A DNA stretch of 64,000 bases, taken from assembly GCA_963749075.1 (NCBI GenBank), contig CAVVLJ010000016.1:896001-960000 (forward strand), given 5' to 3'. This document shows, piece by piece, positions 43,712 to 57,647 of this stretch. Source of the stretch: an uncultured Pseudomonadota bacterium (GTDB taxonomy: Bacteria; Pseudomonadota; Alphaproteobacteria; JACZXZ01). Under the pieces are notes generated by a model. The model had not been told where the DNA came from and did no database searches. It saw nothing but the letters and a program-made list of their open reading frames with translations. Positions within the stretch are counted from its first letter, which is position 1; each line of letters opens with the position of its first letter. Made by a program: the position numbers and the translations under genes.

Positions 43712-44035
43712 ATGACGCTCAAGGCTGCCGCGATCTCGCTTGCCGTTGCTGGCGCCATCGCCTTGGCACCTCTGTCATCCGCCTCGGCCCGCGACTTCCA
43801 TCACGGCCGCGGCATTCTGTTCGGACTGTTCGGCCTGGGGGCGGCGGCGGTCATCGCCGCGGCCACGCTGGCGACGGCGCCGGTCGTGGCGCTGGCCGGG
43901 GGCGCTCCCGGCTATTACGCCCCGCCCGCGCCGGCCTACTACTACCCGCCGCCGGGCTACTACTATCCGCCGCGCGCCTATTATGCGCCGCCCGCCTACT
44001 ATGCCCCGCCTCGCGTGGGATATGGCGCGCAATAG
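43712..44035 (+). CDS. Small exported Pro/Tyr-rich hypothetical protein
   Basis: AGGAG RBS, signal peptide ending ASA, second hydrophobic segment, YYAPP-type repeats. Confidence 0.75.
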   Translation: MTLKAAAISLAVAGAIALAPLSSASARDFHHGRGILFGLFGLGAAAVIAAATLATAPVVALAGGAPGYYAPPAPAYYYPPPGYYYPPRAYYAPPAYYAPPRVGYGAQ

Positions 44036-44846: not shown

Positions 44847-44921
44847 CCCATGTGCAAGACGCCCATGTGGAAGACGCCCATGTGGAAGACGCCCATGTGG
44901 AAGACGCCCATGGGCAAGACG
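44847..44921. repeat. Tandem repeat, 5 x 15 bp (CCCATGTGGAAGACG)
   Basis: Units at 44847, 44862, 44877, 44892 and 44907; the three central units are identical. Confidence 0.95.
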
Positions 44922-45491
44922 AATGCCTTGCGGGCGCAAAACGAGCCGCCTGCCGACGCCGAGCGCGAGGCGGCGCTCGCGGCACTTGCCGGCATGGCGC
45001 GGCGGTTCGAGGCCGTCCTCGCCGCGATCCCGGCGGAGCTTTGGCGCGAGCCGCCCGCGGCCGGCGGCTTTGCGCTGGTCGAGCACGCCTGCCACCTGCG
45101 CGACATCGAAATGGAAGGCTATCGCGTGCGCCTCGAGCGCATGCTCGCGGAAGCCGCACCGCTCCTTCCCGACCTCGACGGCGCCAAGCTCGCGCGCGAG
45201 CGCAATTACCTCGGCGAGGACCTGAGGGCGGGCTTAGGTGCCTTCGCAAGCGCGCGCGGCGAGGTCGTCCGCCGCCTGGCCGGCCTCACGTCCGCCGAGC
45301 GGCGCCGCTGCGGCACGCTCGAAGGTGTGGGCGAGATCACCATCGACGGCCTCGTCGCCAAGATGCTCGAGCACGACCGCGAACATCTTGCCGAGCTCGC
45401 GGCACTCCGAGGCGGAGCTCCTCGCGCGCGCTCGCCGCTCAATGCAGGGCGAAAACCGGTAGATCGGCGTCCTGCAGCATGGCGCGCGTGA
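44850..45491 (+). CDS. DinB/YfiT family protein (true start uncertain because of the repeat)
   Basis: EHACHLRDIE and EHDREH His motifs; four-helix DinB pattern. Confidence 0.82.
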   Translation: MCKTPMWKTPMWKTPMWKTPMGKTNALRAQNEPPADAEREAALAALAGMARRFEAVLAAIPAELWREPPAAGGFALVEHACHLRDIEMEGYRVRLERMLAEAAPLLPDLDGAKLARERNYLGEDLRAGLGAFASARGEVVRRLAGLTSAERRRCGTLEGVGEITIDGLVAKMLEHDREHLAELAALRGGAPRARSPLNAGRKPVDRRPAAWRA

Positions 45492-49004: not shown

Positions 49005-49572
<568 letters not shown>

Positions 49573-49717
49573 CGACAGCGCTTGGGTCGGCCCGCCGACG
49601 GGTCAAAGCCTAGCGCTCCACCTGGCGCAAAACCGTAAAGTCGACCTATGGGCAACATTGATTACATCCCTCGTTGTGTGTTTCAATCCAGGCTTGCAGA
49701 TGCTCTGGGGGAAGAGC

Positions 49718-50437
49718 ATGGGTGGGATGCATGAATTCCGAACCCGGTTTCCGGTGGAGGCCGGTAAGGTTGATAACGATACGGGATTGCCTAATGCGGT
49801 CACGGTCGCCTTCTGGCGTGACGTTGACAATTGGGACGGTATAGTGCCAATTGAGGAACACGTTCAACAGTGCTGCATTCGGGCCAACTTTTCAGGTAAC
49901 AAAGTGGCTCTACTGCGGGGCGAGAATCTGGGTACATCGCAGCAACCGACGAGCATTGCGAACGCCGTTGCGAGCCCAAAGACGTTGGACCCAACTCACG
50001 CTCCCCCGCCTCTACGCCACGAAGCCGAGCGATGGTTGCGCGGCATCGCATCTACTGTCGATGCGACCAGCGCCCTCACGGAATTTAAACGCCTATTCGG
50101 CTCATTCCGGCTACGAAACCATAGGATTTTTGCATTTCGAAATCCGGATAACCCTCGCAATCCTTTAGGTGTTCCAAATCTTGATATCCACTTCCGTCGA
50201 CTCGCGATACCAGGCGCGAATCCCGCCGATTATCTCATGCTCGCCTACGAGCCGGATGGCGCAGACGAGGTCCGCCAGCCCACGGCCCTCGACGCAGGCA
50301 ATGATCTCAGGAACCTGGAAATGTTCGAGCCCGGCGGCTATACACGACCCGAGGGCGGCCTTGATGGCGTACCTGAAGTCGTTACGACGCCCCCTTTGGG
50401 CCGCCAAGTGACAGTTCCGCCAAGGCAAATACGATGA
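49718..50437 (+). CDS. Island ORF1, hypothetical protein of about 239 aa (possible ADP-ribosyltransferase-like C-terminus)
   Basis: Open frame in lower-GC DNA, GGGGAAG before ATG 49718 (alternative starts 49700 and 49727), ATGA overlap with ORF2; motif PTALDAG..F.PGGYT.P.GG.DG.PEVV. Confidence 0.75.
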   Translation: MGGMHEFRTRFPVEAGKVDNDTGLPNAVTVAFWRDVDNWDGIVPIEEHVQQCCIRANFSGNKVALLRGENLGTSQQPTSIANAVASPKTLDPTHAPPPLRHEAERWLRGIASTVDATSALTEFKRLFGSFRLRNHRIFAFRNPDNPRNPLGVPNLDIHFRRLAIPGANPADYLMLAYEPDGADEVRQPTALDAGNDLRNLEMFEPGGYTRPEGGLDGVPEVVTTPPLGRQVTVPPRQIR

Positions 50438-51180
50438 CCAAGGCGCAATGGAAGGAGCTAATTCTTCGCGTGATTTTGACCGCAGGTGCGGAACCGCCCG
50501 ATCGGTCCGGGCGGACCCCATACGATCTCCTGACTGATCGGATGCGTTCTCTCGACAACGGCGATGACGAGTGGAACCGCGCACTTGGCGCCGTTGTAGA
50601 GATTGTGCGCAATCCCGACGGGGCGGATGTTCAGGCATGGCTGCGGCTCATAGGGTTGCTTGAGGAGCTTGCGCCATTGCCGCGCAAAGTTAGAGAAACA
50701 CTGGTTGGGTCGGTTGAAGCGCGCCAGCCCGCTAATTCGGATTTCCGTGCATACCTCATCCGAGTGCTTGCATCAGTAGACGCCCCAATCGATTGGGAAA
50801 GACTACGGCGAAGTGGCATTTCCGAAGAATTCTCACGCAACTCACCCCTGGTGTGGGCGGATGCACTTGTTTGTGGAAATCGCCTCGATGAGGCCTGCGG
50901 TATAGTTCGGCATCTTCTTTCGTCCGACACAGTTACCGCCGAATCTGTCGCAGAATTGCTCAGCCGTTGGAGCTACCGACTGCCAAACGATGAGACGAAG
51001 GAAATCTTCAACGATTTCCGGGATGCGGCAAAACCTGCGGAGCGTCATATATTTGACGAGTGGGCTAGACGTTCCGGACACGGGGAGTGGGCCTCGCGCG
51101 ATCCGCGGCCTCTAGCGAGGACGAGGCCGTCTCTTATGGGCGACGATGAGCGGGATTGGCTCCGGCAGGTTTCAGCATAA
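50434..51180 (+). CDS. Island ORF2, hypothetical, predominantly alpha-helical protein (248 aa)
   Basis: Long ORF overlapping ORF1 (ATGA) and ORF3; Leu/Trp-rich amphipathic helices; no catalytic motif recognised. Confidence 0.78.
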   Translation: MTKAQWKELILRVILTAGAEPPDRSGRTPYDLLTDRMRSLDNGDDEWNRALGAVVEIVRNPDGADVQAWLRLIGLLEELAPLPRKVRETLVGSVEARQPANSDFRAYLIRVLASVDAPIDWERLRRSGISEEFSRNSPLVWADALVCGNRLDEACGIVRHLLSSDTVTAESVAELLSRWSYRLPNDETKEIFNDFRDAAKPAERHIFDEWARRSGHGEWASRDPRPLARTRPSLMGDDERDWLRQVSA

Positions 51181-53834
51181 ACGCGGCCACGAGGGGATTA
51201 CCGGAAGTGCGCTCGATTTCGTTTGACGTTGACGATTTGCCGTACGGCGCGCTACTTCCGCAGCTCCTCGACGCGGTGTTCGCCTCGCTGGGGATTCTCG
51301 CTAATCGCGGCCTTGGTGGTAGCGGACTACAGGAGTTAGATCATGGAGCGATTAACGCGGCTTTCTCATTCCTGACCGATGCGCCGCGAGAGGGAATAAA
51401 CCGCCACCTAAGCTACCACGTCGGCCAAGAATTGCCCGGACTGTGGGCTGAGGGTAGCAGCACCAAAAAGCAAGCTGCACAACCGACACGCATGAGCCTG
51501 GTGATATGCAACTGGTTCGACGCAATCGATGACGCAAAGCGCTGGCGTATCCACCCGGCATCTACCGGCCGTCGACGCAGGGAGATGCCCGTGGCATTCC
51601 TTCCGTCGCCCCTGGCGATTCTGTATGACCTCCTGACTGATCCGGAGGACTCCTCCACGCGAGCGTATGCACAGGTTTCTATACGCAACATACTTCTTAG
51701 GTCATTTCGAATTGCTCCATCGGGATTCGGTCCCGCCCCTGAGGGGTGGAAAACCATGACCCCCGAGGATGTGTCAGTAGCGCTCTCAACGATTTCCACG
51801 TTTCATGCCGGGCGCGACAATATCCGGGCCGCGCGTCGTAGCGATATCGACAATTTCGTTCGGCACTTCATGGCGGCCAAGGGCATGATGCACTTTCGGT
51901 TCGGGTCTCGGGAAAACAAACCGACGGACGGTCTAAGGGATCGGTCCGAATACTGCAAACGGGGTATATTGCACCCGAAAGCGGAGTCATTTGAGTTCCG
52001 CCCTGATCCGGATTTGGCCCAAGTTCCGGGACTTTCCGACATCGAGAATGAAATTTGGGGAGTTCCTCTACCTGTCAGGGGAGCAGACACCCTCTTTTTT
52101 GGCGGCCTGCGGTTTTCGGAAACCGGTGGTCTGGTTGTTGGTGTGTCGGGCGGACCTGGGACTGGTAAGACTTCGTTTGCCCTGTCGTTGATCGGGCGGT
52201 TGGCGCCCTTAGGCACAAAAACACTTTATGTTACGGCTGAAGAGGCAAAGGAAGACCTCTACGCTCGAATTTCATCGATCGTAGCTGATAGGACAAAGCG
52301 GCTTAGTTTCGCGCCAAAATATGACAGAACGGGCAGCTCGGATTGGCTGTTCATCCGAAGCGGGAGAGATCCGAGTAACCCAGATCAAGAATTAGACCCG
52401 GAACTTCTGGTTAATTTTTTGGAGGATATCCGAACCATCAGATCGGAAACCCGGCAAGAATATGCTCCAAGTGCTCCACCTCCGCATCCGTGTAAATTAG
52501 TCGTTGTTCTGGACAATCTTCACAGTTTCGTTCCACATCTTCCGAGTCCCGACGAGAAAAATTCGCAGCACCCGCTTGAGCAAATTATCTCGGCCTGCCG
52601 TTCTATCGGTGCCCTTGTAATAGCAACCTTTGCTAAAGACTGGTGGGGGAGCGCTTGGATCGACTATCTTGTCGATACCGCGGTTGAACTTGAGTACGAA
52701 CAAACGAATGTCCGGGGCCATAAGCCGGCCCGTCTGATGATCCTGAGGAAAACGCGTCAGCAAATCTCACGGCCCGGCGCGCACGGGTTTCATATGTCCG
52801 GCAACTCAGGCTTTCGGATCACGCCGCAAATACCTTCCCAGCTGGACAGGAAGGCGATTTTTAAGAGTGTATTGCCGGATCGGGATTGGCAAATCGACGT
52901 GTTTCGGAGACCTTGCTTTCGCGATGAGTTGGCGGGCATGCCGGGTGCAATGAAGGGGACCCGAGTACCGGAATTCGATACCGCATCTCTCAATGATCAT
53001 CTGCGAATTGCTGTAAACTCTCACGTCCTCCTGCATGGCAAGGGGAGTGGTGGGAAAGCGGGGCTTGCGCTCAAAATCGCCGTCGCTCCGATCCTACCCT
53101 TTGTCCCCTTAAGCTCGGCTCACGTCAAACGTCGAAAGGTCCTTGTCATCTCTTTTCTATATCCGGAACAGTACTATTTGGACGTTAGCGATCATCTGCA
53201 TGCGTTGGCCAAGAGGGAATACGATGACGCCGGCGTCGCAGTTAGCGAACAAGCCCGCGTTGAAGTTGTTTCGCTGTATCCTGGATACATCCAGCCTGAG
53301 GACCTGTTTGATCGGATTATGAGGCGAATCGATAAAGCTGAACTAGAAGGCGAGCCCTTTACGGCAATTGTTCTCGATGGCCTCCACAACGTGGGCCTCC
53401 AGTTTCCGTTGCTCCAGGACTACCCAATGCTATGGCCGGCGCTATACGCAACACTTCGCCGAAAGAAGCTGACTGTCGTGACCACCCACACGATGATCAC
53501 GGTAGAGAGTGGTGTCAGCCATACTGAGTCGATTTCGATCGATGATCCGCGTTCATTGCCCCTTTTACAGGCGCTTGTTCAAGGGTCGGACTATGTCCTT
53601 GCTATAGACCGTGTGCCCAATCCAAAAACAAAATGGCCCGAAGACTATCAAGGAATTGGCGCAGCGATGGAAGTTCGGGTTGTCTCTGCAAATTACCAAG
53701 GAATTCCGCAAGACGAGCTGTTTTGGAGCCGAGACAAACTCGTTTTGTTTATAGACCAAGAGTCCCAACCAAAGCTCAGCTTACAAACGTCGCACGCAAT
53801 CCAAAGTCGCTCCAATTTATCAAGCCGAGAGTAG
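51156..53834 (+). CDS. Island ORF3, tandem KaiC/RAD55-like RecA-fold ATPase with an unknown N-terminal domain (892 aa)
   Basis: GADTLFFGGL, Walker A GGPGTGKT, YVTAEE, Walker B VVVLDNL, RKTR arginine finger; second domain LLHGKGSGGKA ... AIVLDGL; start codon uncertain (TTG 51156 or GTG 51207). Confidence 0.85.
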   Translation: MAPAGFSINAATRGLPEVRSISFDVDDLPYGALLPQLLDAVFASLGILANRGLGGSGLQELDHGAINAAFSFLTDAPREGINRHLSYHVGQELPGLWAEGSSTKKQAAQPTRMSLVICNWFDAIDDAKRWRIHPASTGRRRREMPVAFLPSPLAILYDLLTDPEDSSTRAYAQVSIRNILLRSFRIAPSGFGPAPEGWKTMTPEDVSVALSTISTFHAGRDNIRAARRSDIDNFVRHFMAAKGMMHFRFGSRENKPTDGLRDRSEYCKRGILHPKAESFEFRPDPDLAQVPGLSDIENEIWGVPLPVRGADTLFFGGLRFSETGGLVVGVSGGPGTGKTSFALSLIGRLAPLGTKTLYVTAEEAKEDLYARISSIVADRTKRLSFAPKYDRTGSSDWLFIRSGRDPSNPDQELDPELLVNFLEDIRTIRSETRQEYAPSAPPPHPCKLVVVLDNLHSFVPHLPSPDEKNSQHPLEQIISACRSIGALVIATFAKDWWGSAWIDYLVDTAVELEYEQTNVRGHKPARLMILRKTRQQISRPGAHGFHMSGNSGFRITPQIPSQLDRKAIFKSVLPDRDWQIDVFRRPCFRDELAGMPGAMKGTRVPEFDTASLNDHLRIAVNSHVLLHGKGSGGKAGLALKIAVAPILPFVPLSSAHVKRRKVLVISFLYPEQYYLDVSDHLHALAKREYDDAGVAVSEQARVEVVSLYPGYIQPEDLFDRIMRRIDKAELEGEPFTAIVLDGLHNVGLQFPLLQDYPMLWPALYATLRRKKLTVVTTHTMITVESGVSHTESISIDDPRSLPLLQALVQGSDYVLAIDRVPNPKTKWPEDYQGIGAAMEVRVVSANYQGIPQDELFWSRDKLVLFIDQESQPKLSLQTSHAIQSRSNLSSRE

Positions 53835-53886
53835 CGACAGAGACGAAGCAACTCAGTTGGCGAATGCATGAATTTGAGGAAAGATA

Positions 53887-54916
53887 ATGAAGAAACCGGT
53901 TGCGATCGACTTGTTTGCCGGATGCGGTGGCTTGACTTTAGGCCTTGAGCAAGCTGGTTTTCGTGTTATTGGGGCTGTCGAAATTGATTCTTTGGCTGCG
54001 ACAACATACAGAACCAACCACCCCCGTGTGTTGGTAAAGCAAATGGACATTCGGCAGCTCCCGGCAACGCAGTTACGGCGGGACCTTAAACTCCGTCGTG
54101 GGCAACTCGACCTTCTCGCTGGGTGTCCGCCGTGCCAAGGTTTCTCCACGCTGCGCACGCGCAATGGTTCGAATAGGAACAGAGACGCGCGAAACGACTT
54201 GGTTTACGAAATGCTCCGCTTCACGAGAGCGTTTCGCCCGAGAGCCATAATGATGGAGAACGTCCCCAAGCTTCAAGATCGTAAGTCATTTAAAGACCTT
54301 TGCAATGCACTTCGGCTACTCGGTTATCAGCTAAACTCCGACATCAAGGATGCGGGTCTTTACGGTGTTCCCCAACGCCGGCAACGTCTTATTCTTCTGG
54401 CCGGCCGCGGCTTCAACATACAGTTCGCGATCGAGTTCGCGCCGCTTTCGTACTGTGCGGGGAGCGATCGGTCGAATGGCGAAGCCGGGCAATAGCAAAG
54501 ACGCACTTCATAACCTCCCAGAAAAGAAACGGTCGCTGAGGGTGCGTAGGCTGATAACGGACATTCCCAAAGATGGCGGGAGCCGCGGCGACTTGCCCAA
54601 GAGACGGCAGTTGCCGTGTCACAAGAGGAGCGACGGCTTCAGCGATACGTACGGCCGCATGGCCTGGAACAAGGTGGCGCCGACCATAACAAGCGGTTGC
54701 TTTAATCCATCAAAGGGGCGTTTCCTCCACCCAGAACAAAATCGTGCCATTACTATGCGGGAAGCAGCACTCCTTCAAGGGTTCCCTCGCGATTACTCGT
54801 TCGAACTATCGCGGGGAAAGGAGGCAATAGCATTGATGATCGGCAACGCCCTCCCGCCAGAGCTCATAAGACGGCATGCGTTACAAATTCGCGCGGCCTT
54901 GAGAGAGCATAGTTAG
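53887..54916 (+). CDS. dcm: DNA (cytosine-5)-methyltransferase; +1 frameshift near 54435
   Basis: DLFAGCGG (motif I), GCPPCQGFS (IV), MENV (VI), PQRRQR (VIII), then REAALLQGFP (IX) and IGNA (X) in the shifted frame. Confidence 0.93.
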
Positions 54917-54933
54917 TTCACCGAATGTGGTAG

Positions 54934-55399
54934 GTGATGGCCAACGTTTTTTCGCGAGACAAACGCTCCGACATCATGTCGAGGGTAAAGAGCCGTGGGA
55001 ACCGAGCCACGGAGCTCCGCCTAATGCGCATATTTCGCGAGTACGGTATCCGGGGCTGGCGGCGCCACTCGGCAATTTTTGGAAACCCTGATTTTGTTTT
55101 TCCGGCAGCGCGTCTGGCTGTGTTCGTGGACGGATGCTTTTGGCATAGCTGTCCTACTCACGGCAGCGTCCCCTCCAGTAACTGTGCGTTTTGGAGTCTG
55201 GAAGCTAGACCGGAATCGGATGCGGGATCGCCAAGTGCGTCGGAAATTGTGCCGCTTAGGATGGCGCGTGCTTCGCGTGTGGCAGCACGACCTTAGAGAG
55301 CCCGATCGCGTGGTGCGCCGGGTTACCCGATCAATAGACTCGGTTGCTACTGAGCCGCGAGGCGGAAACGGGCGGCGGCGGAAAGGTCGGAGCCGGTAG
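54934..55399 (+). CDS. vsr: Very short patch repair endonuclease; +1 frameshift near 55200
   Basis: KRSDIMSRVKS, E.RL, G.PDFVF, AVFVDGCFWH.CP; then KLDRNRMRD...GWRVLRVW.HDL in the shifted frame. Confidence 0.92.
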
Positions 55400-55548
55400 G
55401 CGTCCAGGGTTTCCCCGACGTTGTCCAAGTTACAGAGTTGGTCGTGTAAGGGCGGCTTAAAGATAAAGGGCGAGGTTCTTGCCGGTCTCGAGCGGCGGCG
55501 GCGCTTGGGTTCGGAGGAGAAGGCTGGGATCGTCGCGGAGACGATGCT
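55396..55548 (+). mobile_element. IS66-like left end with a truncated TnpA (HTH_Tnp_1) fragment
   Basis: Begins GTAGGCGTCC (IS66 ends typically start GTAAGCG); encodes EVLAGLERRRRLGSEEKAGIVAET and is cut off at the repeat boundary. Confidence 0.65.
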
Positions 55549-56116
55549 GCCGGCGGCGCCTACTCGGCGGCCTCCTCGGCCGGAATCGCGGGCGCCGGGT
55601 CCGCGTGCCGGAAGCCGCCCGACTGGCGCTGCCAGAGGCGCGCATAGCTGCCGCCGCTCGCCAAGAGCTCGGCATGGCCGCCTTCCTCGAGGATGCGCCC
55701 GTGGTCGAGCACGACGAGGCGGTCCATGCGCGCGATGGTGGAGAGCCGGTGCGCGATGGCGATCACCGTGCGGCCGCGCATGAGGCCGTCGAGCTGCTCC
55801 TGGATCGCCGCCTCGACCTCGGAATCGAGGGCCGAGGTCGCCTCGTCGAGGACGAGGATGGGCGCGTTCTTGAGGATCACCCGCGCGAGTGCGACGCGCT
55901 GGCGCTGCCCGCCCGAGAGCTTGACGCCGCGCTCGCCCACGTGGGCCTCGAAGCCGCGGCGACCTTGCCAATCCTCGAGCCCCTCGATGAACTCGAGCGC
56001 GTGCGCGCTCGCGGCCGCCTGCCGCACCTCCTCCTCGCTCGCCTCCGGCCGGCCGTAGCGGATGTTGTCGCGGATCGAGCGGTGGAGGAGCGAGGTGTCC
56101 TGCGTCACCATGGCGA
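55549..56116. repeat. 568-bp direct repeat, copy B (3' end of the intact ABC exporter)
   Basis: Matches 49005-49572. Confidence 0.95.
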
Positions 56117-57431
56117 TGTGGGCGCGCAGGCTCTCCTGCGTGACGTGGGCGATGTCCTGCCCGTCGATCGTGATGCGCCCGCCTTCGAGCTCATAGAAGC
56201 GCAGGAGCAGGTTGACGAGGGTCGACTTGCCGGCACCCGAGCGCCCGACGAGGCCGACGCGCTCGCCGGGCTCGATCGCGAGGTCGATGCCGTGGAGCAC
56301 GCCGCGCTCGGTGCCGTAGCCGAAGCGCACCCGCTCGAAGCGGATGCGGGCCGCGCCCACGCGCAGCACCGCGGCATCCGGGCGGTCCGTCAGCTGCCGC
56401 GGCACCGCGATCGAGCGCATGCCGTCCTGCACGACGCCCACGTTCTCGAAGATCGAGGTGACGTTCTGCGCCACCCAGCCGGCGATGTTGGCGATCTGCC
56501 AGGTGAGCGGCAGCGCCATGGCGACCGTGCCCACGGCGATGCTTCCGTCGTTCCACAGCCAGACCGCGGCCGCTCCCGTGCCGACGACCATCGTGGCATT
56601 GAGCGTCGTGAGCCCCAGGCTGAAGAAGGTGATCACGCGCAATTGCCGGCGGAAGCTCTCGGTATGGTCGTCGATCGCCGCGCGCACGAAATTGTCCTCG
56701 TCGCGCGGCCGCGCGAAGAGCTTGACCGTGACGATGTTCGTATAGCTGTCGACGACCCGGCCGGTGAGGGCCGAGCGCAGCTCGGACATCCGCCGCGAGC
56801 GTTCGCGCAAGCGGGGGACGAAGTAGCGCAGCAGCGCCACGTAGCCGGCGAACCACAGCAGCACGGGGAGCGCCAGGCGCTTGTCGTTCGAGCCCATCAT
56901 CAGCACGGCGCCGCCGCCGTAGACGAGGATGTACCAGACCGCGTTCGTCGACATGACGAGGCTCTCGCGCAACGCCGGACCCGTCTGCATGACGCGGTTG
57001 GCGAGGCGGCCGGCGAAATCGTTCTGGAAGAAGGCCCAGCTCTGCCGCACCACGTGCCAGTGGCTCTGCCAGCGGATGAGGTTGCTGAGGCCCGGATTGA
57101 TGGCCTGGTTGGTGATGAGGTTCTGGAGCAGGAGGGCCGCCGGCCGGGCGAGCAGCAGCACGAGCGCCATCCCGACGAGCAAGCGCCAGGCCTCGGCAAA
57201 GAGCGCGCCCGGCGCGTGACTCGAGACGAGGCCCACCAGCCGGCCGATGAAGAACGGGATCGTGGTGTCGAGAGCCGCCACCGTGAAACCGGCGGCGAAG
57301 AGGGCGACCACCAGCCCGCGCGCCTGCCGGGCGTAATGCCAGTAGAAGGCCATGAGCCCTGAGGGCGGCGGCGCCTCGGGCGAGAGTGCCGTGGGGACGA
57401 GCAGGCTCTCGAAGAAACGGAAGACGCGCAT
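55560..57431 (-). CDS. ABC exporter, fused permease/ATP-binding protein (MsbA/multidrug type)
   Basis: Multi-TM N-terminus, [45 protein letters not shown]. Confidence 0.95.
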   Translation of the reverse strand: MRVFRFFESLLVPTALSPEAPPPSGLMAFYWHYARQARGLVVALFAAGFTVAALDTTIPFFIGRLVGLVSSHAPGALFAEAWRLLVGMALVLLLARPAALLLQNLITNQAINPGLSNLIRWQSHWHVVRQSWAFFQNDFAGRLANRVMQTGPALRESLVMSTNAVWYILVYGGGAVLMMGSNDKRLALPVLLWFAGYVALLRYFVPRLRERSRRMSELRSALTGRVVDSYTNIVTVKLFARPRDEDNFVRAAIDDHTESFRRQLRVITFFSLGLTTLNATMVVGTGAAAVWLWNDGSIAVGTVAMALPLTWQIANIAGWVAQNVTSIFENVGVVQDGMRSIAVPRQLTDRPDAAVLRVGAARIRFERVRFGYGTERGVLHGIDLAIEPGERVGLVGRSGAGKSTLVNLLLRFYELEGGRITIDGQDIAHVTQESLRAHIAMVTQDTSLLHRSIRDNIRYGRPEASEEEVRQAAASAHALEFIEGLEDWQGRRGFEAHVGERGVKLSGGQRQRVALARVILKNAPILVLDEATSALDSEVEAAIQEQLDGLMRGRTVIAIAHRLSTIARMDRLVVLDHGRILEEGGHAELLASGGSYARLWQRQSGGFRHADPAPAIPAEEAAE

Positions 57432-57647
57432 GCTTTGCGATCCTCGTGGCGTGGTCGTGGCGCCGCCCGGGCGCATGTCCTCATGCGAGATACGAGCGAC
57501 GCCGGTCAGGCCGGCGCTTCCCGGGCGGCAGCGGCGGCGGCGCCCGCGTCGACCATTGGACGATCGCAGATTGAACGCCGCAGTTTACTTCGTCGCGGCG
57601 CTGAGTTCGAGAAAAAGCAGGCGGCGACGGCGGCCGGCACGTGCGCG

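What the first reader, a model, noticed from the sequence alone, without database searches (positions are those of the whole stretch)
49718..55399. Candidate novel defence system: ORF1-ORF2-KaiC-like tandem ATPase-Dcm-Vsr
Seen: five co-oriented genes in lower-GC DNA. ORF1/ORF2 overlap by ATGA, ORF2/ORF3 overlap, and only 52 bp and 17 bp separate the last genes. Known: C5 methylase plus Vsr pairs mark restriction-modification and defence loci, and NTPase-plus-effector architectures are common in anti-phage systems. I recognise no restriction endonuclease here and know of no named system with this composition. Inference: a KaiC-like ATPase sensor or switch controls a toxic effector (ORF1) through a helical partner (ORF2). 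Methylation may provide self/non-self marking or may be an independent passenger.
Basis: partly seen in the sequence, partly recalled or inferred. Interest (0 to 1): 0.88.

Follow-up and report, generated by a model that had tools for sequence, protein, structure and literature searches.

The report
Methylase-linked KaiC-like ATPase defence cassette
A small, horizontally acquired gene island joins a DNA cytosine methylase and its repair nuclease to three uncharacterised genes built around a KaiC-like double ATPase; the same trio sits beside DNA methylases in many unrelated bacteria, so it is probably an undescribed, untested restriction-type immune module.

Summary
A 5,976-bp island of low GC (49573-55548) carries five co-oriented genes. 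It lies between 568-bp direct repeats of an ABC-transporter 3' end. ORF3 is a tandem KaiC-like ATPase (Foldseek E 7e-21 to full-length KaiC) with an unexplained N-terminal domain of about 290 aa. ORF1 and ORF2 match no Pfam, NCBIfam or PADLOC model. The dcm and vsr genes each carry one extra base in this assembly. A near-identical contig from a soil metagenome run lacks both bases, so both genes are probably intact.

Of 85 loci encoding ORF3 relatives, 45 of the 50 with enough upstream DNA have two co-oriented genes directly before it. Of the 34 with at least 3 kb on both sides, 32 have a DNA methyltransferase within 5 kb. These are m5C enzymes, often with Vsr; one well-supported clade has N4/N6 enzymes instead. 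A second five-gene unit (L040) is also bounded by direct repeats.

The best reading is a mobile, methylation-linked, NTP-dependent restriction-like module with no recognisable nuclease (confidence 0.5). The effector role of ORF1 is unproven. A weak ADP-ribosyltransferase-fold lead found no support in sequence profiles. I found no published description.

The parts
49005..49572 (.). Left direct repeat: a truncated copy of the last ~190 codons of the ABC-transporter gene (minus-strand fragment 49016-49606)
   Evidence: 96% identical to 55549-56116
49573..55548 (+). Low-GC insert (5,976 bp) holding the five genes. It has no tRNA, no Rfam match, and no integrase or transposase match among the five gene products
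49718..50437 (+). ORF1 (protein A, 239 aa from ATG 49718; in-frame starts also at 49658 and 49701). It belongs to an unnamed family of stand-alone proteins of about 230-290 aa. Conserved residues: D192, G207, T209, E220
50434..51180 (+). ORF2 (protein B, 248 aa). A fast-evolving partner with no family match and no conserved catalytic-type residue
51207..53834 (+). ORF3 (protein C, 875 aa from GTG 51207, or 892 aa from TTG 51156). It has an N-terminal domain of unknown function (~290 aa) followed by two RecA/KaiC-like ATPase domains. Domain 1 has Walker A G332-T339, E362/E363 and D453. Domain 2 has G628-K634 followed by A635, and D741
53887..54916 (+). dcm (C5 cytosine DNA methyltransferase). 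It is read in two frames here because of one extra base near 54436; it is 342 aa without that base
54934..55399 (+). vsr (very-short-patch repair endonuclease). It is read in two frames here because of one extra base near 55199; it is 154 aa without that base
55549..56116 (.). Right direct repeat: the 3' end of the intact ABC-transporter gene (55560-57476, minus strand, 638 aa)

Best explanation
The five genes form one self-contained, horizontally mobile, methylation-linked defence module of the restriction-modification kind. Dcm marks the host's own DNA, and Vsr repairs the T:G mismatches that 5-methylcytosine deamination causes. This role of Vsr is established knowledge of the family. ORF1, ORF2 and ORF3 would together be the NTP-dependent restriction arm. 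ORF3 is inferred to form a KaiC/RadA-type double-ring ATPase that acts as a motor or switch, with an extra N-terminal domain that may bind DNA or the partners. ORF1 is the best candidate for the catalytic effector, because it alone has a fully conserved acidic residue (E220). ORF2 is a rapidly diverging adaptor or specificity factor. Shown here: the gene content, the KaiC-like fold, the conserved trio, its tight linkage to methyltransferases of two chemical classes, and its boundaries as a mobile unit. Inferred, not shown: the defence function, the complex between the three proteins, which protein attacks what, and whether unmethylated DNA is the trigger. The island probably entered by the known mode called 'insertion with long target duplication'.
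For: (1) Conserved trio. Of 50 loci with at least 2 kb upstream of an ORF3 relative, 45 have two co-oriented ORFs directly before it. The ORF1-family profile hits 35 of these 50 and the ORF2-family profiles hit 34. (2) Methylase linkage. Of 34 loci with at least 3 kb on both sides, 32 have a Dcm-type or N6_N4-type methyltransferase within 5 kb, and 13 of the 34 have Vsr. Across all 85 loci, the methylase abuts the block directly in 37, abuts it through Vsr in 4, lies one gene away in 7 and two genes away in 1; none is seen in 36, most of which are short contigs. Gaps between the methylase and the ORF1-type gene run from -17 to +20 nt in L005, L007, L011, L045, L046, L048, L051, L054, L063, L068, L069 and L081. 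(3) Methylase class switch. Six loci without Dcm have an N6_N4_Mtase next to ORF3 (five reach Pfam's cut-off, and L023 scores 23.9 bits against a cut-off of 26.7). With L072 these seven rows form one clade in the ORF3 tree (support 100; 0 of 500 label shuffles did as well). (4) Unit boundaries. In the window, the five genes and nothing else lie between 568-bp direct repeats. In L040, Vsr-A-B-C-Dcm lies between 98-bp direct repeats, with no tRNA. Furuta et al. 2010 (PMC2853133, passages read) describe this insertion mode for restriction-modification systems of types I to IV. (5) Foreign origin and patchy spread. GC is 0.51-0.58 against 0.66-0.73 in the flanks. None of 400 other genomes of the same class has ORF3, yet relatives occur in Pseudomonadota, Bacteroidota, Thermodesulfobacteriota and Binatia. 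(6) Defence-island neighbours: MzaB/MzaC, HerA, mad8-like ATPases, an Eco29kI-like nuclease and a GHKL ATPase. (7) ORF3 keeps every invariant ATPase residue of its family and matches full-length KaiC (E 7e-21, probability 1.00, 569-585 aligned columns). ORF1 keeps D192, G207, T209 and E220. (8) dcm and vsr are intact in a near-identical contig of run X1.
Against: No nuclease or other known effector domain is recognisable in ORF1-3. Two of 34 well-flanked loci (L038, L039) have no methyltransferase in the fetched DNA, so the trio can exist without an adjacent methylase. In several loci the neighbouring Dcm has another possible restriction partner: an Eco29kI-like nuclease in L002 and L082, MzaB/MzaC in L008, and a GHKL ATPase in L018. 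There the methylase may belong to that partner. The gene at the ORF1 position is not constant. A 499-552-aa protein with an FAD/NAD(P) Rossmann domain replaces it in L002, L036 and L038 (L003 carries a 66%-identical 552-aa homologue). Pairs of 320-335 aa plus 125-152 aa occupy the two upstream positions in L050, L052, L054 and L055. L082 has no upstream pair. The window's ORF1 departs from its family consensus at several conserved positions: W138F, L158H, G163A, L164I and W203F. In this assembly dcm and vsr are frameshifted. Run X1 may be the sample the genome was assembled from, so its contig is not independent proof. There is no expression or phenotype evidence.
Confidence: 0.5

Rival explanations
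1. ORF1-3 are an independent defence system, abortive-infection-like or modification-dependent (type IV-like). Its action does not use the neighbouring methylase. It merely clusters with restriction-modification genes in defence islands and travels with them.
For: L038 and L039 have the trio without a methylase nearby. In L002 and L082 the Dcm has its own Eco29kI-like nuclease. In L008 the Dcm is followed by MzaB/MzaC, and in L018 by a GHKL ATPase. The variable proteins at the ORF1 position resemble the effector swapping seen in sensor-effector systems; that comparison is recalled, not tested.
Against: 32 of 34 well-flanked loci have a methylase within 5 kb. It abuts the block, directly or through Vsr, in 41 of the 49 loci where one is seen, often with overlapping or nearly touching reading frames. 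The N4/N6 methylase has been co-inherited through a whole ORF3 clade. Two repeat-bounded units hold exactly these five genes.
Confidence: 0.2
2. ORF2 and ORF3, perhaps with ORF1, are accessory factors of the methylase, not a weapon. An ATPase and a co-regulator would load, activate or target the methyltransferase, as reported for MtsA/MtsB in MANTIS; or they would handle DNA repair or epigenetic control around methylated sites.
For: The MANTIS preprint (10.64898/2026.09.23.753747, abstract and outline read) reports that an ATPase and a co-regulator are both needed to recruit and activate a methyltransferase. ORF1-3 have no recognisable nuclease. The trio is linked to methylases of two classes.
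Against: Stand-alone Dcm-type methylases normally need no loader (general knowledge). In L002 and L082 the trio sits beside a complete M-R-V set. L038 and L039 lack a methylase. ORF1 has a fully conserved Glu, which suggests catalysis. PADLOC's models, which by recall include Gao_RL, do not match.
Confidence: 0.12
3. ORF1-3 are the mobility machinery of the island. A RecA-superfamily ATPase with two partners would catalyse the homology-assisted insertion that leaves long target duplications, and would carry the methylase as cargo.
For: Two units (the window and L040) are bounded by long direct repeats of target DNA with no integrase or transposase inside. The mechanism of 'insertion with long target duplication' is not explained in the passages read of PMC2853133. 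ORF3 belongs to the RecA superfamily.
Against: Only 2 of the 46 other loci of at least 9 kb show flanking direct repeats, and one of those (L061) is an ordinary tRNA-Gly island. Furuta et al. saw the same insertion mode for ordinary restriction-modification systems that lack any such genes. The fold match is to KaiC, not to a strand-exchange recombinase.
Confidence: 0.05
4. The island is a decaying remnant with inactive dcm and vsr and no present function.
For: Both dcm and vsr are frameshifted in this assembly. The flanking repeats have diverged by about 4%. The window's ORF1 deviates from its family consensus at several positions.
Against: A contig of run X1 lacks both extra bases, which gives full-length frames of 342 and 154 aa. 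These are 67% and 55% identical, without gaps, to the L015 proteins. ORF1-3, about 1,360 codons, are open and keep all invariant family residues.
Confidence: 0.05

Closest known systems
Type II m5C restriction-modification units with Vsr (M-V-R gene sets)
   Same: A C5 cytosine methyltransferase (PF00145) is directly followed by Vsr (PF03852). The unit is compact, low in GC and mobile, and it inserted with a long target duplication as described for restriction-modification systems.
   Different: There is no recognisable restriction endonuclease. In its place stand three genes totalling about 1,360 codons, built around an ATPase. In L002 and L082 a classical Eco29kI-like nuclease is present in addition to the ORF3 homologue.
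Multi-gene methylation-based defence systems: BREX, DISARM, MADS, MANTIS (Gao_RL), Mza
   Same: A methyltransferase sits with one or more NTPases and proteins of unknown function. The spread is patchy and horizontally transferred, and the context is defence islands. MADS is described as rare but phylogenetically widespread (PMC13662399, passages read). In MANTIS an ATPase and a co-regulator work with the methylase (preprint abstract).
KaiC, the circadian clock ATPase/autokinase, and KaiC/RadA-like ATPases
   Same: Two tandem RecA-like domains align with full-length KaiC: E 7e-21, probability 1.00, TM-score about 0.62-0.69 normalised to KaiC. Domain 1 has the Walker A, the glutamate pair E362/E363 and the Walker B.
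   Different: The NCBIfam KaiC equivalog scores 24.9 bits against a cut-off of 408. There is an extra N-terminal domain of about 290 aa. The second Walker A ends in Ala (A635) instead of Ser/Thr throughout the family. ORF1 and ORF2 match no KaiA or KaiB family. The context is a methylase island, not a clock locus.
Dcm-linked ATPase modules without a recognised nuclease (MORC/paraMORC GHKL type, HerA-NurA type)
   Same: They share the logic of Dcm, with or without Vsr, plus an NTPase and unknown partners. Such modules even share loci with this cassette: a GHKL ATPase in L018, MzaB/MzaC in L008 and HerA in L015. Earlier notes of this scan describe such modules in other genomes (unchecked AI notes).
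   Different: The ATPase superfamily and the partner proteins are different. No sequence relationship was detected.

Membership tests
Classical Type II restriction-modification system | DNA methyltransferase with the catalytic motifs | tested here: met
   PF00145 matches at E 1.7e-45 (N-terminal part) and 3e-12 (C-terminal part); TIGR00675 scores 136.8 bits against a cut-off of 100.65. The gene is in two frames in this assembly and is one 342-aa frame without the extra base near 54436.
Classical Type II restriction-modification system | A cognate restriction endonuclease recognisable by family or fold | tested here: not met
   ORF1 and ORF2 have no Pfam, NCBIfam or PADLOC match. ORF3 matches only ATPase families. 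The ORF1 model has no significant PDB or BFVD match.
KaiC clock protein family | Two tandem RecA-like ATPase domains | tested here: met
   Foldseek to 3k09_C, 2gbl_C and others: E about 1e-20, 569-585 aligned columns. Walker A and B are present in both halves.
KaiC clock protein family | Score above the curated equivalog cut-off | tested here: not met
   NF006799 scores 24.9 bits against a cut-off of 408. PF06745 covers only residues 307-378.
KaiC clock protein family | KaiA/KaiB partners and autophosphorylation sites | not tested
   ORF1 and ORF2 have no Pfam match at all. The rest of the genome was not searched for KaiA or KaiB, and phosphosites cannot be assessed with these tools.
MADS (methylation-associated defence system) | The eight-gene mad1-mad8 set with an m6A methylase | tested here: not met
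   The only match is a weak mad8 hit: 17.2 bits, E 6.8e-4, over ORF3 residues 328-409. 15 of 30 family members hit mad8, best E 2.8e-7. No other mad model matches. The methylase here is m5C. The MADS composition comes from PMC13662399 (passages read).
BREX / DISARM / Mza / Gao_RL (MANTIS) | Signature proteins (PglZ/BrxC, DrmA-C, MzaA-E, the RL proteins) | tested here: not met
   PADLOC shows no such match for ORF1-3 apart from DrmD at E 0.053. MzaB and MzaC occur only as neighbours in L008.
ADP-ribosyltransferase fold (DarT and relatives), considered for ORF1 | Significant structural or profile similarity to an ART family | tested here: not met
   Foldseek best E is 0.19 in PDB (probability 0.18; TMq 0.24 for that hit, highest TMq 0.33) and 0.25 in BFVD. 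hhalign against a DarT alignment gives probability 0.1-0.2, no better than unrelated controls. 0 of 17 members match any ART family in Pfam.
Restriction-modification insertion with long target duplication (Furuta et al. 2010) | Direct repeats over 30 bp flanking an insert under 20 kb, with no mobility gene inside | tested here: met
   The repeats are 568 bp and 96% identical; the insert is 5,976 bp. The five gene products have no integrase or transposase match. The criteria come from PMC2853133.
Restriction-modification insertion with long target duplication (Furuta et al. 2010) | A related genome has the target once, at an empty site | tested here: inconclusive
   The same-genus genome G004 has one close (88% identical) copy of the repeated segment; its other listed matches are 69-84% identical and are read as paralogous ABC genes. 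Its downstream flank shares no similarity with the window, so an empty site could not be shown.

The most novel reading that the evidence does not exclude
The cassette is a nuclease-free restriction system of a new type. A KaiC-type double-ring ATPase, whose relatives act as slow ATP-driven switches, would use the neighbouring methyltransferase's mark, whether m5C or N4/N6, to tell self from non-self. It would then license ORF1, an enzyme of a new fold family whose weak structural neighbours are NAD-using ADP-ribosyltransferases, to disable foreign DNA chemically instead of cutting it. Replacement of ORF1 by an FAD/NAD(P)-Rossmann protein in one clade would fit a dinucleotide-dependent effector step.
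Probability: 0.12. Interest if true: 0.9.

Novelty: new variant of a known kind. Interest (0 to 1): 0.62.

Why it matters
Methylation-based immunity beyond classical restriction enzymes (BREX, DISARM, MADS, MANTIS) is an active field, and each new architecture has shown a different way of coupling self-marking to attack. This cassette adds an ATPase class, a KaiC-like double RecA ring, not seen in any defence model that I could search. It also adds two protein families with no annotation; the ORF1 family alone has 528 clusters at 50% identity. The cassette is small (about 6 kb) and self-contained. One search lists it in named strains by record title: Methylocystis rosea SV97, Mucilaginibacter pedocola TBZ30, Pelagimonas phthalicica DSM 26923, Rhodobacter lacus KCTC 15478, Bradyrhizobium sp. 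141 and Hyphomicrobium sp. D-2. An ORF1 relative is also on record from Rhizobium leguminosarum. The hypothesis is therefore directly testable. It also gives two more examples of a methylase unit inserted with a long target duplication, a mobility mode whose mechanism is not explained in the passages I read.

Tried and rejected
ADP-ribosyltransferase lead for ORF1. The weak Foldseek hits in PDB and BFVD are dominated by ART-fold proteins: DarT, SPN NADase, pertussis S1, cholera A1, Tpt1, RES and phage ADP-ribosylases. None is significant. hhalign of the 17- and 137-sequence ORF1 alignments against a DarT alignment gave probability 0.1-0.2, the same as unrelated controls. The 11-residue spacing between T209 and E220 does not fit my recalled R-S-E motif layout. 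I keep this as a lead only.

Complex prediction (ORF3 residues 1-300, ORF1, and ORF2 as the scored partner). The verdict was 'no answer', so it is not used for or against binding.

ESM Atlas. There was no usable hit for ORF1. For ORF3 residues 1-280 the best hit was a FokI recognition-domain cluster at 0.76, below the level at which shuffled proteins also score, so it is a lead only. The alternating helix-helix-strand pattern at 152-201 and 203-257 in the model is compatible with winged-helix units. That is my reading of secondary structure, not a test.

PDB sequence search with the ORF1 profile found nothing meaningful.

Sequencing runs: no RNA holder is listed. Runs X2 and X3 gave only small shares or matches in the repeat region.

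An empty-site comparison in relatives was inconclusive.

Other collections. IMG/VR gave only Walker-A-sized matches, in 7 loci. tblastn of ORF3 against PLSDB plasmids gave no match.

No Rfam family and no tRNA lies in or near the island. Promoter-like and terminator-like sites are at or below the shuffle expectation.

The maximum-likelihood tree run did not finish, so a FastTree tree was used.

Earlier findings of this scan: there was nothing for this place or this sequence. The word search returned analogous but different Dcm-linked ATPase modules.

Literature. Seven full-text searches were run. Five asked for a described KaiC-type methylase-linked defence system and found none. One search concerned long target duplication and concerned MADS.

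Candidate-system lists in the supplements of defence-discovery papers and of PADLOC could not be checked and might already list this cassette.
Full report
WHAT IS THERE

Between 49573 and 55548 the window has a 5,976-bp stretch with GC of 0.51-0.58. The flanks are at 0.66-0.73. The stretch lies between two direct repeats, 49005-49572 and 55549-56116, which are 96% identical over 568 bp.

The right repeat is the 3' end of an intact minus-strand ABC-transporter gene (55560-57476, 638 aa). The left repeat is a truncated second copy of that 3' end.

Inside are five + strand genes:
- ORF1 (49718-50437)
- ORF2 (50434-51180)
- ORF3 (51156 or 51207 to 53834)
- dcm (53887-54916)
- vsr (54934-55399)

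The ATGA overlap of ORF1 and ORF2 is real. The 52-bp and 17-bp spacers follow from the coordinates. The ORF2/ORF3 overlap depends on a TTG start. GTG 51207 has GAGGGG 10 nt upstream and gives the 875-aa protein held in the database (P0002), which leaves a 26-nt gap. No tRNA, Rfam family, integrase or transposase lies in the island.

THE TWO BROKEN GENES

In this assembly dcm and vsr are each read in two frames. Alignment to the intact homologues in L015, L016, L018 and L022 places one extra base in each gene.

Logan contigs of a soil-metagenome run (X1, which holds 0.83 of the island's sampled words) were laid on the region. One 1,265-nt contig covers 54258-55524. It leaves out exactly one letter at 54436 and one at 55199, and it also has four substitutions.

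Read that way, dcm is one 342-aa frame, 67% identical to the L015 Dcm over 330 aa without gaps. vsr is one 154-aa frame, 55% identical over 134 aa without gaps. X1 may be the sample the genome came from, so this shows an assembly error or a strain variant and is not independent confirmation. Either way a natural intact version exists. Another X1 contig (49400-51052, no differences) bridges the left repeat into ORF1 and ORF2.

THE PROTEINS

ORF3. Pfam sees KaiC only at residues 307-378, and NCBIfam's KaiC equivalog scores far below its cut-off. The AlphaFold model, built on a 30-sequence alignment (pLDDT 80, pTM 0.84), matches full-length KaiC chains at E about 1e-20 and probability 1.00 over 569-585 columns. 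So 'tandem KaiC-like ATPase' is right.

The family alignment shows three features:
- Domain 1 has a canonical first Walker A (G332-T339), the glutamate pair E362/E363 and D453.
- Domain 2 has a second P-loop (G628, G630, S631, G633, K634) that ends in a nearly invariant Ala (A635), and a D741-G-x-H-N motif.
- The first ~290 residues are conserved (S151, P152, L160 and P163 are invariant) but are not explained by any search.

ORF1. It has no family in Pfam, NCBIfam or PADLOC. A profile search of 1.84 billion representatives finds 528 clusters at E up to 0.001. All 150 listed are 125-317 aa long, mostly 230-290 aa, so no long fused forms appear. In a 137-sequence alignment E220 is conserved in 100% of sequences, G207 in 99%, and D192 and T209 in 94%. 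The model is confident (pLDDT 85, pTM 0.81), but it has no significant neighbour in PDB or BFVD.

ORF2. It has no family match, and its relatives share no invariant residue beyond the start Met. Sub-family profiles still connect them weakly; the window's ORF2 matches the B1 profile at E 1e-5.

LINKAGE ELSEWHERE

ORF3 has 79 relatives in the 5.8-billion-protein collection, and none is informatively named. I fetched 22 genome loci and 63 metagenome loci, called ORFs and mapped them with profiles.

- Of 50 loci with at least 2 kb upstream, 45 have two co-oriented ORFs directly before the ORF3 homologue. Three of the five exceptions still carry ORF1-type or ORF2-type profile hits. Only L082 clearly lacks a pair.
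- Of 34 loci with at least 3 kb on both sides, 32 have a DNA methyltransferase within 5 kb and 13 have Vsr. The two exceptions, L038 and L039, were checked with Pfam and have none in the fetched DNA.
- Over all 85 loci, the methylase abuts the block in 37, abuts it through Vsr in 4, is one gene away in 7 and two genes away in 1. In the remaining 36, mostly short contigs, none is seen.
- In many loci the methylase gene overlaps the ORF1-type gene or ends within 20 nt of its start.
- Six genome loci without Dcm carry an N6_N4-type methylase convergent on the end of ORF3. With L072 they form a single clade of the ORF3 tree (support 100; 0 of 500 shuffles as clustered; FastTree, 66 rows).

The association has therefore survived a change of methylation chemistry and long divergence. 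That argues for function, not accident.

VARIATION

The gene at the ORF1 position is not constant.
- A 499-552-aa protein with an FAD/NAD(P) Rossmann domain takes its place in one clade: L002, L036 and L038 by Pfam, and L003 by 66% identity to the L002 protein.
- Other loci have pairs of 320-335 aa plus 125-152 aa with no family match.

Some neighbouring Dcm genes have other partners:
- an Eco29kI-like nuclease (L002, L082)
- MzaB/MzaC (L008)
- a GHKL ATPase (L018)
- HerA (L015)

These neighbours show a defence-island setting. They also keep alive the rival that the trio merely keeps company with restriction-modification genes.

MOBILITY

The window's unit has the hallmarks that Furuta et al. 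(PMC2853133, passages read) list for restriction-modification 'insertion with long target duplication': long direct repeats of target DNA, an insert under 20 kb and no mobility gene.

Independently, in L040 the set Vsr-A-B-C-Dcm is bounded by 98-bp direct repeats (98% identical, no tRNA). L061 sits in a tRNA-Gly island. Among the 46 other loci of at least 9 kb, only these two show flanking direct repeats.

The family is rare and scattered. It was found in 0 of 400 other genomes of the window's class, yet it is present in at least four phyla. It was not found in PLSDB plasmids, and IMG/VR gave only matches the size of a Walker A motif.

HOW IT MOST LIKELY WORKS

Shown: the composition, the KaiC-like fold, the conserved residues, the linkage and the unit boundaries.

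Inferred: the methylase marks self DNA and Vsr limits the mutational cost of m5C. ORF1-3 form an ATP-dependent complex that acts on unmarked incoming DNA. ORF3 would be a hexameric motor or switch, ORF1 the catalytic part (E220), and ORF2 a fast-evolving adaptor or specificity factor. I put this at 0.5.

Rivals:
- an independent system that only co-localises (0.2)
- an ATPase and co-regulator that serve the methylase, as reported for MANTIS (abstract read) (0.12)
- a mobility module (0.05)
- a decayed remnant (0.05)

COMPARISON WITH WHAT IS KNOWN, AND NOVELTY

The cassette is not a member of the classical Type II, BREX, DISARM, MADS, Mza or Gao_RL families by any signature protein. It works like them in outline. 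Seven full-text searches, five of which asked for such a system, found no description of a KaiC-type methylase-linked defence system. Supplementary candidate lists could not be opened. I rate it a new variant of a known kind, namely methylation-linked multi-gene defence. It is untested, with an unrecognised effector chemistry.

Noticed in passing
L040:26-123 and L040:6485-6582: 98-bp direct repeats (98% identical) bracket exactly Vsr-A-B-C-Dcm in a metagenome contig. The right copy lies inside a 324-aa ORF, and there is no tRNA. This is a second example of the unit inserted with a target duplication.
   Followed up: partly
L002:5635-7218, L036:4551-6074, L038:4622-6121: In one ORF3 clade the gene at the ORF1 position encodes a 499-552-aa protein with an N-terminal FAD/NAD(P)-binding Rossmann domain (Pyr_redox_2). 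This is an unexpected partner for a methylase-linked ATPase.
   Followed up: partly
L005, L008, L009, L054 (downstream of Dcm or ORF3 homologue): In L008 MzaB-like and MzaC-like genes directly follow the Dcm that abuts the KaiC-like cassette. Gene pairs of similar size (about 490 aa plus 920-990 aa) stand in L005, L009 and L054. One methylase therefore appears to be flanked by two different ATPase modules. Only L008 was checked against PADLOC.
   Followed up: partly
L082:11336-12100 and L002:11068-11895: Eco29kI-like (GIY-YIG type) restriction endonuclease genes sit next to the Dcm beside the ORF3 homologue. L082 has ORF3 without an upstream partner pair.
   Followed up: partly
L039: Here the cassette has no methylase in the fetched DNA. 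It lies near an actin-like partition protein (ALP_N) and a TrwB/HerA-like ATPase, which suggests a plasmid or conjugative element.
   Followed up: no
window 44850-44920: The ORF at 44850-45491 starts with four tandem copies of a pentapeptide (KTPMW). The opposite-strand frames show matching repeats, so there is a short 15-bp tandem repeat at the gene's 5' end.
   Followed up: no
window 43712-44035: A small ORF has a signal-like N-terminus and a Pro/Tyr-rich tail (PPxYY repeats).
   Followed up: no
G000:C4:48121-48369: The genome has a second match to the C5 methyltransferase family on another contig. Only the C-terminal part of the profile matches, in an open frame of 251 aa.
   Followed up: no
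window 54383, 54943, 54948, 55439: The run X1 contig differs from the window by four substitutions within 1.27 kb of dcm-vsr. Its other contigs over ORF1-3 have 0-1 differences. This points to local assembly error or a strain variant confined to this end of the island.
   Followed up: no
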